This document shows positions 6,476 through 55,434 of a DNA stretch of 64,000 nucleotides, piece after piece. This DNA is from Eledone cirrhosa. Taxonomy: Eukaryota. Where the stretch lies: NCBI GenBank assembly GCA_964016885.1, contig OZ024747.1:64852001-64916000 (forward strand), in the 5' to 3' direction. The notes under the pieces were generated by a model. It did no database searches. It was not told where the DNA came from and was given only the letters and a program-made list of their open reading frames with translations. The translations under genes were made by a program, and so were the position numbers. The stretch's first letter is position 1; every line of letters begins with the position of its first letter.

Positions 6476-6860
6476 TATTGTTATACTTTGGGAGGGTCAT
6501 GTTGCCAATAAGAAACACACGCACCAGTTGCTTTAACTTCAATTTATTATAATAAATTTAGGAATTTATAAATTTCCGGTTGGTTGGTTGGTTGGTTGGT
6601 ACCCCAATCAGATGGTTGTTTATATATTGTCAAAGTTCTTTCGTCACACATTATGTGACCTCTTCAGTGACTGGGGATTCTTTTCTTTTTTTTGTGCCTC
6701 TCCTTTGTTCTGTCCTACGCCATCTTGTCTGATGGCGTAGTTAAAGCAATTGGTGCGTGTGTTTCTTATTGGCAATATGACCCTCCCAAAGTTTAACAAT
6801 ATCGGTTTCAACTCACGTTTTCAGATAAAGAATCTTGCTAAACAAATTCAGAAACGAAAT
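6476..6860. mobile_element. Short non-coding HHR-bearing repeat with inverted 3' tail (Penelope pLTR-like)
   Basis: 6476-6537 is the reverse complement of 6741-6802. A non-inverted copy of the family lies at 40440-40760. Confidence 0.7.
6629..6671 (-). ncRNA. Minimal type I hammerhead ribozyme motif
   Basis: Minus strand: gtca CTGAAGA g GTCACA taatg TGTGAC GAAA gaac TT tgac. Confidence 0.75.
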
Positions 6861-8689
6861 ATATATATATATATATATATATATATATATATATATATAT
6901 ATATATATATATATATATATATATATATATATATATATATATATATATATATATATATATATGCATCTATGTATGTATATATGAATATCTTTAGATAACT
7001 AATCATATTTTAGTCGTGTCATGATATGCAATTTGGGCATATGTATTATAAGAAAGATATTTTAATTGCAGTCCATCTATACAATTAATTCATTAGTTCT
7101 ATCACAATGACAGATATATGATTAGTAGATACATTAAATACATAGGATCTGAGTTGGTTCCATGAATACATGACTACAAACTGTTTATGTGTCTATCTTC
7201 AAAAGATCAATTGTAGTCAATATCTAGAAATATTTAATATTTATGACTGATTGTGTGAAGGTGACTCAATGAATGATTATGTGAAGGTGACTGTTCATTA
7301 ATACACCTGAAACTGTTCATGCATAATAGAACTTTGTAATGTTCAAGTAGTAATACTTTCTAACATTGGCACAATGAAGGGAGGGGAAAGTCGATTACAT
7401 CGATCCCAGACTGGGCCGGATTTAATGTGGGGCAAAGAAGGCAATTGCCTCGGTCTCTGCAGTGGGGGACCCCACCGAAGCAATTCATTTGTGCCCTCAG
7501 CTGGAATATATTTAGTTTTAGGATGGTTATAATCTTCTAATTTAATACATGTATGTATAACGTTTCAATTCCAATGACTTGCGCCAAGTTATATTTAATA
7601 TGTAAAATTTAGTGTCTGCTTTTGTCATTTTTTTTATCGACCCCGTAAGGATGAAAGGCAAAGTTAACCTCGCCCTCTATTAATAATAATGGTTGTTTCT
7701 ACTTTAGGCTAGAAATCTGAAGGAGAAAGGAAAGTCGATTAATTCGACATACATACATACAAATAAATACACACAGACACACGCAGGCATGAAGACAAAC
7801 AGACACACATACAGATACACACATACACACAGATATACACATATGCTTTCATCAGATACACACATAGTAACAGAGATACTCAAAGACACAGGCAACACAT
7901 ATTTACACACAAACAAATACACACATACATCCACACATATACACACATACACACAGTGACACACGTACATATATACACAGACACACATACACAAATGCAC
8001 ACATACAGCAAGTCATATATGCATATACACACACACACATACGCACAGAGATAAACACAGAGTCATGCACACAAAAAATGCACACATACATCCAAACATA
8101 TACACACATACTCACATACACAAATGCACACATACATTGAAAAATATACACACATACACACAGACATACGCATTTAGGCACACGGATATACACATATACA
8201 CATACATACACTCACTTCATAAGTAACCTAGATTTTACCTCAAAATAGACAGCATTCCTCAAACCATCAGGCCGTAATGCAGTTTGACTCTGTACCTGAG
8301 ATCACTTGTTGAACATCTAATATAAATTTTAGAAATTCAATTGCTCACTCAATGCATCGAGGAATACATTGCCAGCATTCTACTCTATATACAGCTTTTA
8401 TTCTACGTCAATAGTTATATAATATACAGTTGTCGTGTATTCTTTGATTTGTCGTTGTTGGTAGCGTGATCTCACAGTCACATATATAATCAATAAAATA
8501 GCCATTGTTATTTCACTAATACCAATTCTAAGTTTCGTAATGAAATGGCGTTTCATTAATCCTGACCCTCTTACAATACAATAAAGCTTAAAAAGCTAAT
8601 AAGGTGGTAAATAATTTGCAAGTATTGAAATATGCACAGAATATATGTTTGTGTAGGTAGATATACCAAAATATTAACACACACTGAAA

Positions 8690-9265
8690 GTTATGCCATC
8701 AATACTACGAAATAACAACAGAAAAATTGTGGTACTGACATCAGAAGAAAACGTCAGAGAATAACAAAGCACCCATACTAGGGGATATAGCAATATACAC
8801 AATGATGAAAATCAAATTCAACCGACCGGATATTGCTATTAAAGATCACAAAGAAAAACTTTGTCTTCTGATTGATGTATCAATCCCAAATGACAACATA
8901 TCTACCAAGGAAACGGAGAAACTATCCAAATATAAAGATGTAGAGATAGAAATAACCTGAATGTGGATGTTGAAGACAGAAACAATACCTATAATTATAG
9001 GTGCTCTGGTTCTTATTGAGTTATGTATCCCTACAGACAATATACCTATTACGTCTATCAAGGAAATGGTGAATTATCCAAATATATAAATGTAGAGATA
9101 GAAATAACCCGAATGTGGAAAATAAAACAAGCTGTTTCTATAATAATGGAACTCTGAGAATGATAAAAACACACAGACACATACATAACCAAATCCATAA
9201 GACCTATACATATATACAGCATACAGAAAATAGCACTACTAGGCACTGCACTCATATTATGAGTA
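8690..9265 (+). mobile_element. R4/Dong-like non-LTR retrotransposon, decayed restriction-like endonuclease domain with internal duplication
   Basis: Translates to NRPDIAIKDHKEKLCLLIDVSIP..KETEKLSKYKDVEIEI*MW..TETIPIIIGAL. About 9020-9160 duplicates about 8870-9010. Confidence 0.8.
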
Positions 9266-9276
9266 CACCCTCAATA

Positions 9277-9540
9277 GTGTTACTGGTTAGAGCATTAGGC
9301 TTGCAATTGAGAGGTTCTAAGTTCGATTCTCAGACCGGGTGATACGTTGTGTCCTTGAACAAGACACTTTATTTCACGTTTCTCCAGTTTACTCAGCTGT
9401 AGAAATGTGTTGCGACGTCCCTGGTACCAAGCTGTATCTGTCATTGCAACGGGGCATGAAGAGGGGAGACTGATATGCATGGCTTGTGCCTCAGAGGGAA
9501 ACTTTCTAGGTGCAAAACCATGGTGATTAGTGACCGAGTG
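9277..9540 (+). mobile_element. SINE family A copy
   Basis: B box gttcgattc and gtgtccttgaacaagacactttatttcacg core. Confidence 0.75.
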
Positions 9541-9582
9541 TGGCTATAGACACAGACTATCAATAGATTAGAAATAACAATG

Positions 9583-9793
9583 TCTACTATAGGCACAAGG
9601 CCAGCAATTTTGGGGGAGGGGAGAGTTGATTAAATCAACCCCAGTGCATTACTGATGCTTTATTTTATCGACCCGGTAAGGATGGAAGGCAAAACGAACA
9701 TCGGTGGGATTTGACCTCAGATCATAAAGGGGCGTAACTCTATGCTGGAAAGCATGGTGTCCGGCGCTCCACTGATTTTGCCAATCCGCCGCC
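9583..9793 (-). mobile_element. SINE family B (tRNA-like head, gcctttcatcct..gggtcgataaaataaagtaccag core)
   Basis: Reverse complement matches the copies at 12579, 12777, 35026 and 59256. Confidence 0.8.
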
Positions 9794-52901: not shown

Positions 52902-52937
52902 TCTTACCGTTTTGGACGCTAGTCCTTCATCAGAAGA
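52902..52937 (-). ncRNA. Minimal hammerhead motif, G12A-mutated (family of 30219)
   Basis: Minus strand: tctt CTGATGA a GGAC tagc GTCC AAAA cgg TA aga. Confidence 0.6.
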
Positions 52938-53484
52938 AAGAATGAGAAATAAGATAGATTGAGCGGACGGGTGGGTTGGAATTGGAAAAAATAGATAAAA
53001 ATAACAGTATGCGCATACCGAGAACGGCCCTTTGTGGTCTGAGTTCAAACTTTGCCTTTCATCCTTTCGGGGTCGATCAAATAATGTACCAGTAATACAC
53101 TAGGATAATTGCTGGCCTTGTGCCTATACTAGAAATCAATATTATACCCATTCATTTTCAGAACTAATATTGTATTTTGATCCCATATTGTTCTTACACA
53201 TATATTCAATAAATAGTATTTGAAAAAGTATGAATATATTAAATATTTGGTTCATATAGTGAATATAATGTATTTTATATAATTCCCGAATTGACACTGT
53301 CAATTATTTTGCTGTTTGATTTCCATTTCATTTCTATATAAATATTTAAAATATATATTAAAAATGTTATTTTTGCAACATTATTCTTCTGTTTCCTGTA
53401 TTTTAAGATTCTGTAGATAGCAACACGTAGTCAGAGACCCTAAGACCAGCTTGCGGCGCATATATATATATATATATATATATA

Positions 53485-53722
53485 TATTTATTTATTCAAA
53501 TAACAGATTAAAGTTTAAGCAAAGAATCGCTGCCTTCACCCTTAACGGGATCATCTGAAGCGTTTCAGAAGATCCCGTTAAGGGTGAAAGCAGCGATTCT
53601 TTGCTTAAACTTTAATCTGTTAGTTTAATAAATATTTGTTCTACGGTTCTTATATATTTGATATATATTTATCCTTATCGAGCCCTCTTTGGATTTTAGT
53701 CTTCAAATGCTTTATTATTACT
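53485..53722. repeat. Fold-back copy of the cccgttaaggg family
   Basis: Palindrome centred at about 53562; the right arm continues to the family 3' tail. Confidence 0.85.
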
Positions 53723-55072
53723 ATATATATATATATATATATATATATATATATATATATATATATATATATATATAATCGATTAATTTGGCTATATATA
53801 TAGATATAGTCAAATCGTCGAAAATTGAGATGGTCTGAAAGATGATGGATGTATTCATATGTTTGTGATCTCCTATCATCCATTCTATTTCTTCCTTCCT
53901 ATCTATTCTTTGAGCCAAATCACTTCGAGCCGTTGATTTCTATGCTTCAATGTAATGTTTTACCCAACGCCATTTCGATGGCATTTTGCTATTTTAACAA
54001 ATTCCTTACGCTGAGGTTTTCCATTTTCCTACGAAATTATTCTGATACACTGGCGTTTTCGTCTATATTTCGTACATATATATATATATATATATATATA
54101 TATATATATATATATATATATATATATATATACTGTATATATGCCAACATAAGAGCAACAATTACGAGGTCATTCTACTGACATTGTTTAAAGAGGCTGT
54201 TTGCACAATTGCAAACGAATCGAATATTATTATTAACATTCGAAAAACTGAGATTACATTTATTGTATTAAGACATGGAGAGCGATAAAACTATTTGTAT
54301 ATATATATATATATACATATATATATATATATATATGAAAATGTTTGACCCCGACGGCAGAGCTCAGCCCATCGAAACGAGGTCAAACAGAATTGGTAAT
54401 TCACTGTTTCTGAGTACTAGCTTTGATCAAACTCGAAAATATGTTAGGATATGTTGGACACATAAAGTTAGAACGTATTCAGAGAGTATTGTGAAATTCT
54501 ACATAACGTTTCTTCAAGTGAAAGTGCCACTAAGATATGAAGCATACCCGTTCTGATTCCAATCATGGTTTCTATCAGAACTCGTATTCTTCATGTAAAA
54601 GCAAATACTTCAGAGGTGCTATATCAAAAACTAAATTACAAAACGAATCTTTTCTCAGAAGCTATATCGATCTTAACTTACAATAACCTACCTCTAAAGA
54701 AACTAGAGGAAATGAGAAAATTCACAGATATGAAAATAAAACATACCCCAGATTGAGGAGAGTGTTATCACAAACTATTCCCATAATACAATCTGAGATG
54801 GGAATGACAGAACATATACAATGAAACTCATATAATGACGATCACATACCTTACTCATACACTAATAACAATAGCATGTGTATATATATATATATATGTG
54901 TGTGTGTGTGTGTGTGTGTGTGTGTGTGTGTGTGTGTGTGTGTGTGTGTGTGTGTGTGTGTGTGTGTGTATATAGTGGTGGAACACTGGAAGGTAATATC
55001 CATAGGGGTAGAGCACTCAGTCCAAGGGAAGAGTTAGGTAGAAGTGGTTACACAACAGTTAGTTCACCATAC

Positions 55073-55110
55073 CGAGAACAATTGTTTCACCTTAGCGGAT
55101 CCTCAGCTCG
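55073..55110 (-). ncRNA. Minimal hammerhead motif, U-U at base of stem II, inside inverted repeat 55039-55218
   Basis: Minus strand: cgag CTGAGGA t CC gctaa GG t GAAA caattg TT ctcg; stem I extends through ccat/atgg. Confidence 0.8.
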
Positions 55111-55434
55111 TAATGGGCATGATTATAGGAACAGGGAGGTCAACCGTACGGTGAAACAACCGCTAAGGTGAAACAATTGTTCTCGGTATGGTGAACTAAC
55201 TGTTGTGTAACCACTTCTATATATATATATATATATATTGGGCGAGGGGTATATGTATCTGTGTGTATATATTATATATATATATATATATATATATATA
55301 TATATATATATATATATATATGATTCCAGTTCCTCAGTGAAATAACAACACAACCAGGAATTGGGCATATCTGAGTATTGACAAAATTATACACCTCAAC
55401 AACATATGTACTTGTCTATACCACACTAATTCGG

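What the first reader, a model, noticed from the sequence alone, without database searches (positions are those of the whole stretch)
6476..55218. Fold-back repeats share one polarity: 5' ends inward, HHR 3' tails outward
Seen: in 6476-6860, 32482-32875, 51943-52338, 52430-52701, 53485-53722 and 55039-55218, the HHR-sense strand points outward on both arms and one arm is often longer. Established: Penelope-like insertions often carry an inverted, 5'-truncated terminal copy. Inference: both ends of a break in (TA)n prime reverse transcription, or the cDNA folds back, making this a systematic source of genomic palindromes. Mismatched arms in several cases argue against sequencing artefacts.
Basis: partly seen in the sequence, partly recalled or inferred. 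Interest (0 to 1): 0.7.

Follow-up and report, generated by a model that had tools for sequence, protein, structure and literature searches.

The report
Twin-primed Penelope head-to-head insertions
The six mirror-image repeats are back-to-back stumps of common Penelope-like jumping genes, a known shape, but one arm almost always stops at the element's short end and the other at its long end, which likely means both sides of the cut DNA start copying the same RNA at two fixed points.

Summary
The six fold-backs are real. They are 5'-truncated ends of five ribozyme-bearing repeat families; four are shown to be Penelope-like elements (PLEs). The polarity holds outside the window: 53 of 53 opposite-strand neighbours within 500 bp are 5'-inward, while a SINE control gives 8 vs 7. 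Matching strand-switch joints occur in raw reads of three other samples. This shape is published (PMC3846280, PMC8557442, PMC4209133). Added here: each family has two fixed 3' ends, short (S) and long (L, S plus a 41-84 nt tail), and 149 of 153 classifiable pairs are one S plus one L (50% expected). An unlisted sixth family gives 38 of 39. In 58 of 133 pairs the arms are not nested as cDNA fold-back requires. Best reading: twin priming from both target ends at two RT start sites, matching in vitro data (PMC11167929); not shown directly. The published alternative is self-priming. This scan already noted the same idea on other DNA, in this genome and others.

The parts
6476..6728 (-). Family B short (S) arm, with HHR at 6629-6671
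   Evidence: family B full-length copy with RT + GIY-YIG-type ORF in L276
6739..6858 (+). Family B long (L) arm: 63 nt shared with the S arm plus 56-nt tail, then (AT)n
32482..32681 (-). Family C S arm, HHR at 32604-32642; 5' end at the family's break hot spot (predicted RNA start)
32681..32915 (+). Family C L arm, HHR at 32715-32753, ~40-nt tail to 32915
   Evidence: ORF in L277 with Pfam RVT_1 and GIY-YIG
51944..52168 (-). Family D S arm (HHR copy with mutated GAAA)
   Evidence: no family D ORF found
52179..52414 (+). Family D L arm, HHR at 52213-52287, ~74-nt tail
52436..52595 (-). Family A (Hydra-like PLE) L arm with ~82-nt tail
52596..52628 (.). 33-nt junction insert made of short repeats of the element's own 5' sequence (likely repeated template jumps)
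52629..52706 (+). Family A S arm
53489..53559 (-). Family A S arm, second insertion (different junction, opposite S/L order)
53562..53722 (+). Family A L arm; HHR-like fold 53562-53610 with variant core CAGAAGA
54973..55150 (-). Family E (Hydra-like) L arm, HHR at 55073-55110, ~66-nt tail to 54973
   Evidence: partial ORF in L280
55163..55219 (+). Family E S arm, starts inside HHR stem II
5898..6012 (.). Unlisted family A insertion: 25-nt S arm (5898-5922, -) joined head-to-head to an almost tail-only L arm (5918-6012, +); same architecture, hardly any palindrome
29667..29858 (.). Unlisted family F palindrome with S arm left and tailed L arm right; used as held-out test

Best explanation
These are head-to-head insertions of Penelope-like elements in which one arm ends at the short end and the other at the tailed long end, likely made by twin priming: both strands of a (TA)n target would be cut and each free 3' end would prime reverse transcription on the same sense RNA, one at the short site and one at the long site. 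Each cDNA would run toward the RNA 5' end and stop early, at the rival primer, or at the predicted RNA start; the two cDNA 3' ends would then be joined through short microhomology or a few inserted bases. Shown: polarity, two fixed ends, the S+L rule, non-nested arms, shared rare variants, junction overlaps. Inferred: double nicking, priming order, one RNA, strand displacement where arms overlap, and that the break hot spots are RNA 5' ends.
For: 149 of 153 classifiable pairs are S+L, 2 S+S, 2 L+L, vs 50% if arms chose ends independently (p 4e-39; automatic, five pairs reassigned by eye; 37 of 190 junctions had a broken or cut-off end and were left out). Held-out family F: 38 S+L, 1 L+L, 0 S+S of 39 classifiable; 55 of 55 adjacent opposite pairs head-to-head. 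Non-nested arms in 58 of 133; tail-only long arms in 20 of 146. In family A, long-arm 5' ends pile up at the S site (13 of 61 in a 24-nt zone) with 2 in the next 51 nt, as if blocked by a primer already there. Partner arms share otherwise unseen variants at 25 of 12,714 sites vs 32 of 271,303 for non-partner arms. At the hot-spot centre TTC[T/A]GAA either strand's base is kept (7 T, 3 A among S+L pairs), as expected if two cDNA ends anneal across a mismatch. In vitro, an Anolis PLE protein cuts and extends both target strands, starts at two RNA sites that flank the tail, and is predicted to be a dimer (PMC11167929). S and L ends and strand-switch joints appear in raw reads of three other samples.
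Against: 86 of 113 simple pairs overlap by more than 15 nt, unlike classical L1 twin priming, which leaves an internal deletion (PMC2837659); this needs strand displacement or a second RNA. The pile-up at S is clear only in family A and absent in C (0 of 16). Shared variants could also come from one source locus or later arm-to-arm conversion; no A-to-G strand bias marks an RNA template (2 A>G vs 3 T>C). A cap-derived extra G at the hot spots was inconclusive. Target-site duplications could not be read inside (TA)n. 4 of 153 pairs break the rule. In vitro, both strands used both start sites without difference, so what enforces one-of-each is unexplained. Many copies are single arms (178 solo arms with an intact 3' end).
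Confidence: 0.62

Rival explanations
1. Self-priming with endonuclease trimming: an antisense read-through RNA folds back and primes its own copying; the hairpin product is then cut at S on one arm and L on the other and integrated (published view).
For: PMC3846280 reads junction palindromes as self-priming on an antisense template; PMC8557442 ascribes the tail to EN-mediated resolution. Trimming could give S+L and even non-overlapping arms. 43 of 146 pairs have near-symmetric 5' ends, often at natural quasi-palindromes. Shared rare variants fit too.
Against: Needs two different cuts in element DNA on every event; RT start sites at the tail borders on sense RNA are measured in vitro. The commonest family A centre would need a 1-nt loop (439 tight centres genome-wide). 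Break hot spots sit where a sense transcript would begin (family C: 15 of 36 copies break at one site ~30 nt after a TATA-like box).
Confidence: 0.15
2. Dual priming on two RNA molecules held by an asymmetric dimer, one subunit always starting at S and the other at L.
For: Explains long overlaps without strand displacement (86 of 113; two ~4.2-kb arms at C1:21872013-21880699). Predicted dimer. Dual priming is proposed for L1.
Against: Does not predict the pile-up of long-arm ends at S in family A or the ~17-fold excess of shared rare variants, unless both RNAs come from one locus.
Confidence: 0.15
3. The first cDNA folds back on itself and copies itself.
For: Could make the 75 of 133 pairs in which the long arm reaches as far or further 5'; junction microhomology is common.
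Against: A copy of an S-primed cDNA cannot gain a tail, and a copy of an L-primed cDNA cannot reach further 5' than its template, yet 58 of 133 do; gives no reason to stop exactly at S.
Confidence: 0.05
4. Chance neighbours in (TA)n hot spots, or assembly fold-back artefacts.
For: Elements do cluster in (TA)n; two window palindromes have identical arms; no long reads were checked.
Against: 163 head-to-head vs 8 tail-to-tail within 500 bp for PLE arms, SINE 8 vs 7; mirrors stop at element ends; arms differ by about 2-5% in families A, B, C, E; 12 of the 14 listed strand-switch joints recur in all three raw-read samples.
Confidence: 0.02

Closest known systems
EN+ Penelope-like insertions with inverted 5'-truncated pLTR and tail (Adineta Pen2a, PMC3846280; overview PMC8557442; D. 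virilis Penelope, PMC2377424)
   Same: Head-to-head inverted copy, junction palindromes or overlaps, partial tandems, tail often at one end only, microsatellite targets
   Different: Tail is described as optional and 30-40 bp; here it is 41-84 nt and on exactly one arm in 149 of 153 pairs. The papers propose self-priming or EN resolution, not twin priming.
Hydra clade of PLEs (PMC8557442, section 11)
   Same: Families A and E: C-terminal EN, CxCx5C linker, CxxC and CxH near the end, (TA)n targets, HHR in pLTR; family A also has DKT and RWR (RWK-like)
   Different: Family A unit is ~3.3 kb (described: mostly under 3 kb) and its HHR core reads CAGAAGA; no tree was built
Anolis Poseidon in vitro (PMC11167929)
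   Same: Two RT start sites flanking the tail, AT-rich target, both strands cut and extended
   Different: Did not link the two sites to the two arms of inverted insertions in the parts read; different clade
L1 twin priming (as described in PMC2837659)
   Same: Two target ends prime, 5' ends joined inward, microhomology at the junction
   Different: L1's second primer lands at variable internal sites and leaves a deletion; here both sites are fixed and arms usually overlap
PLE minimal type I hammerheads (PMC4209133)
   Same: HHR in pLTR, short palindromic stem III (family C), dual motifs 100-700 bp apart on opposite strands already noted
   Different: U-U at the base of stem II in A, C, E and the U4-to-A core in A; activity untested

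Membership tests
EN+ Penelope-like elements | Single ORF with RT and C-terminal GIY-YIG endonuclease | tested here: met
   C: Pfam RVT_1 2.9e-6 and GIY-YIG 3.2e-6. B: RVT_1 8.9e-4, 23% to C over ~500 aa, GIY-YIG by eye. A and E: motifs by eye only, no relevant Pfam hit.
EN+ Penelope-like elements | ORF for family D | tested here: inconclusive
   tblastn of A, B, C proteins over 36 family D loci gave only short endonuclease-region matches to B in L295 and L206/L279, not shown to be family D; D is filed by architecture only
EN+ Penelope-like elements | pLTR from partial tandem, with tail just after it and before the ORF | tested here: met
   L066: pLTR, ~84-nt tail, ORF, pLTR at 3.26-kb spacing; B 4.15 kb and C 4.2 kb likewise
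EN+ Penelope-like elements | Hammerhead motif in the pLTR | tested here: met
   Structure descriptor hits all five families; 56 hits in 544 kb vs 1 in reversed sequence. No hammerhead among the 150 Rfam rows shown of 240.
EN+ Penelope-like elements | RT phylogeny with PLE references | not tested
   No reference set fetched
Hydra clade (families A, E) | CxCx5C linker, DKT, RWK-like motif, (TA)n target | tested here: met
   Read in translations against the description; E is a C-terminal fragment only, so DKT and RWK were not checkable there
Active hammerhead ribozyme | Self-cleavage | not testable with these tools
   Family A has a non-canonical core; few 5' ends fall at predicted cut sites (one family C junction)
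Twin priming (L1 type) | Inverted 5'-to-5' junction with microhomology | tested here: met
   81 of 146 junctions show overlap of 1 nt or more (gap histogram; sequences)
Twin priming (L1 type) | Internal deletion, arms not overlapping | tested here: not met
   27 of 113 share 15 nt or less; 86 overlap more. Works like twin priming, but is not the L1 form.
Twin priming (L1 type) | Target-site duplication around the whole unit | tested here: inconclusive
   Flanks are simple repeats
MITE or self-replicating palindromic element | Copies share one fixed palindrome | tested here: not met
   Junctions differ between copies and sizes run from ~65 bp to 8.7 kb

The most novel reading that the evidence does not exclude
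Penelope-like elements integrate by an obligate, asymmetric twin priming: a dimeric RT-endonuclease cuts both target strands and loads them at two fixed sites of one RNA, displacing the first cDNA where needed. The tail, the inverted pLTR and head-to-head polarity are then all one mechanism, and solo copies are cases where one arm shrank to nothing. It would have made on the order of 100,000 hairpin-forming loci in this genome.
Probability: 0.45. Interest if true: 0.7.

Novelty: new member of a known kind. Interest (0 to 1): 0.45.

Why it matters
How PLEs make tandem and inverted ends is named as an open question (PMC8557442). The S+L rule is a sharp prediction for an in vitro system that already exists (PMC11167929) and separates twin priming from the published self-priming idea. 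About 20 head-to-head junctions of five families in 544 kb suggest roughly one per 25 kb, a large supply of potential double-stranded RNA. PMC5625713 reports heavy A-to-I editing of lizard Penelope and unusually many dsRNA-forming loci in octopus.

Tried and rejected
Rfam scan: only below-threshold miRNA-like matches among the rows shown. DNA search of the genome with a palindrome arm found nothing because common repeats are skipped; motif patterns were used instead. Long-gap orientation patterns were not accepted by the tool, so the genome-wide orientation count rests on listed hits and fetched loci, mostly from contig C1. One search used a reference ending in (TA)n and was discarded. Family G orientation test was invalid (microsatellite in the query). 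References D2 (contains a SINE) and E2 (contains an inversion) produced false junction rows; these fall mostly in the 37 unclassified pairs, and three long E pairs were left out of the nesting test. Automated search for tiny partner arms beside solo copies failed through a misplaced anchor; about five remnants were seen by eye. A-to-G editing signature in shared variants: not found. Cap-derived G: family C 4 G, 8 C of 15; family A 6 of 22 at one site and 4 of 5 at another; inconclusive. HHR-cut 5' ends: no enrichment seen by eye. Reads laid on the 32482 palindrome confirmed the family's S end but did not bridge this locus. Pyatkov 2002 and 2004 were not held; Evgen'ev and Arkhipova 2005 and Arkhipova 2006 were not read and may already state more. 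Small-share runs X4-X11 were not used.
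Full report
Observation. A self-comparison of the window finds all six inverted repeats, and the sequence shows hammerhead (HHR) motifs whose sense strand points outward in each. They belong to five families: A (52430 and 53485), B (6476), C (32482), D (51943), E (55039). Exact 25-29-nt motifs occur 20,156 (A), 25,130 (B), 6,942 (C), 366 (D) and 5,375 (E) times in the 3.0-Gb genome.

What they are. Full or partial source elements were recovered. Family A (L066) is pLTR, tail, ORF, pLTR at 3.26-kb spacing; its protein has DKT, RWR and a CxCx5C linker, matching the Hydra clade description, though Pfam gave no relevant hit. 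Family E's C-terminal fragment has the same linker. Families B and C encode RT followed by a GIY-YIG-type endonuclease. No ORF was found for D. The fold-backs are therefore truncated 3' ends (pLTRs) of Penelope-like elements; junctions and sizes differ from copy to copy (about 65 bp to 8.7 kb), so they are not a self-copying palindromic family.

Polarity test. Among the first 100 listed motif hits of each family (contig C1; C1-C3 for D), opposite-strand neighbours within 500 bp were 5'-inward in 53 of 53 cases, and within 1.5 kb in 72 of 73. In 1.68 Mb of fetched, de-duplicated DNA, arms with an intact 3' end gave 163 head-to-head and 8 tail-to-tail within 500 bp; a tRNA-headed SINE gave 8 and 7 among 302 copies. 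This sample is not random: loci were picked by motif, 15 for tight centres and about 20 because pairs or full-length copies were listed, which inflates the number of pairs but should not favour one end class. In 544 kb of contiguous DNA on C7, C3 and C12, 82 local inverted repeats were found de novo; 13 held a descriptor HHR, 12 were called outward and the one called inward lies in an asymmetric right arm and is outward on inspection. The other 69 have no descriptor HHR; some are HHR-less parts of the same families, some SINE pairs, many unexplained.

Artefact test. Arms differ by about 2-5% in A, B, C, E, and each mirror stops at the element's end. Raw Illumina reads from three other samples with the same species label show loose ends at the two family A 3' ends followed by (AT)n, and opposite-strand joints at internal positions; 12 of the 14 listed recur in all three samples (86 more joints not shown; all three runs are from one study). 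No long reads were available, and the 32482 locus itself was not bridged.

The end rule. Each family has two fixed 3' ends: S, the end of the pLTR, and L, which adds a tail of 84 (A), 56 (B), 41 (C), 74 (D) or 66 (E) nt. Of 190 head-to-head junctions, 153 had both outer ends classifiable. The automatic call was 146 S+L, 6 S+S, 1 L+L. Inspection moved four S+S to S+L (diverged tails) and one S+L to L+L, giving 149, 2 and 2; independence predicts 50% (p 4e-39). Family F (window 29667), not used to pick loci, gave 38 S+L, 1 L+L and 0 S+S, with 16 further pairs unclassified, and 55 of 55 head-to-head. All six listed repeats obey the rule, as does an unlisted insertion at 5898-6012 whose arms barely overlap.

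Mechanism. Simple cDNA fold-back requires the short arm to be nested in the long arm. In 58 of 133 pairs the short arm reaches more than 10 nt further 5' (32 the reverse, 43 within 10 nt; 13 tandem or badly referenced pairs left out), and in 20 of 146 the long arm is tail only. Two cDNAs started from opposite target ends explain all classes. One RNA is suggested by family A long arms ending at the S site (13 of 61 in 24 nt, then 2 in the next 51 nt) and by rare variants shared between partners (25 in 12,714 sites vs 32 in 271,303). Partner arms were closer than the median other copy in 54 of 71 pairs and the closest in 29. Family A has 439 tight-centre palindromes genome-wide, mostly joined at TTC[T/A]GAA with either base kept (7 T, 3 A). 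Against: most arms overlap (86 of 113), which needs strand displacement (PLE RTs lack RNase H, from my own knowledge) or a second RNA; the pile-up is absent in C; no A-to-G bias; the cap-G test was inconclusive; TSDs were unreadable. 5' breaks cluster at family-specific sites; for C this is about 30 nt after a TATA-like box (15 of 36 copies), likely the RNA start.

Comparison with print. PMC3846280 (passages) states that head-to-head is the most frequent arrangement, that a tail is optionally on one inverted pLTR, and proposes self-priming on antisense RNA. PMC8557442 (passages and section 11) describes the inverted 5'-truncated copy, a tail often at one end, (TA)n targeting, and calls the mechanism open. 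PMC4209133 (passages) notes dual HHRs on opposite strands 100-700 bp apart. PMC2377424 (passages) shows the inverted D. virilis form. PMC11167929 (parts 1-2 of 4) shows both strands cut and extended and two RT starts flanking the tail. PMC2837659 (passages) defines twin and dual priming. PMC5625713 (passages) and bioRxiv 10.64898/2026.07.22.740005 (two passages) were consulted. I did not find the strict S+L rule or PLE twin priming in searches; key older papers and all supplements were not seen. The scan's own notes hold the same reading many times; my reading was written before I looked.

Verdict. The added value is the near-absolute one-short-one-long rule across six families, which favours twin priming (0.62) over self-priming with trimming (0.15), two-RNA dual priming (0.15) and fold-back (0.05). 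Interest 0.45.

Noticed in passing
window 53562-53610 and family A generally; 34701-34724: Family A's HHR core reads CAGAAGA in the element, but junctions at TTC[T/A]GAA create the canonical CTGAAGA on one strand (e.g. 34701-34724, minus).
   Followed up: partly
G000:C7:64790342-64793034 (L044-L045): 2.7-kb palindrome with 8 outward HHR hits, a tandem HHR array (retrozyme-like) folded head-to-head.
   Followed up: no
G000:C1:21872013-21880699 (L277, L278): 8.7-kb palindrome of two full-length family C copies; outer ends are one L and one S, and one inner 5' end falls at the predicted HHR cut.
   Followed up: partly
window 40258-40361, 37443-37506, 11551-11821: Mirrors of non-repetitive flanking DNA centred on a (TA)n run, a different class; 6 exact mirrors of 15 nt or more among 2,486 TA runs.
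   Followed up: partly
window 5663-5783, 18836-19026, 20828-21043, 46539-46971: Low-copy AT-rich palindromes with no HHR and no family assigned.
   Followed up: no
window 43845-44660; HHR at 44327-44369: Another HHR family (G) with nested inverted pieces; also canonical HHR motifs at 49716-49776 and 55435-55489.
   Followed up: partly
window 42690-43259 (-): GIY-YIG ORF fragment of a further PLE (Pfam 1.5e-5).
   Followed up: no
window 727-3619, 27867-29324, 33002-33926, 23200-23931: LINE fragments (RT Pfam 4.7e-33 at 27867-29324; others by eye).
   Followed up: no
window 12565-12982, 59256-59622: tRNA-headed SINE, often in tandem; inverted pairs occur in both orientations (used as control).
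   Followed up: yes
L276 5831-6937 (-): Family B carries an Asn-rich stretch upstream of its RT, recalling the N-rich inserts reported for Adineta PLEs.
   Followed up: no
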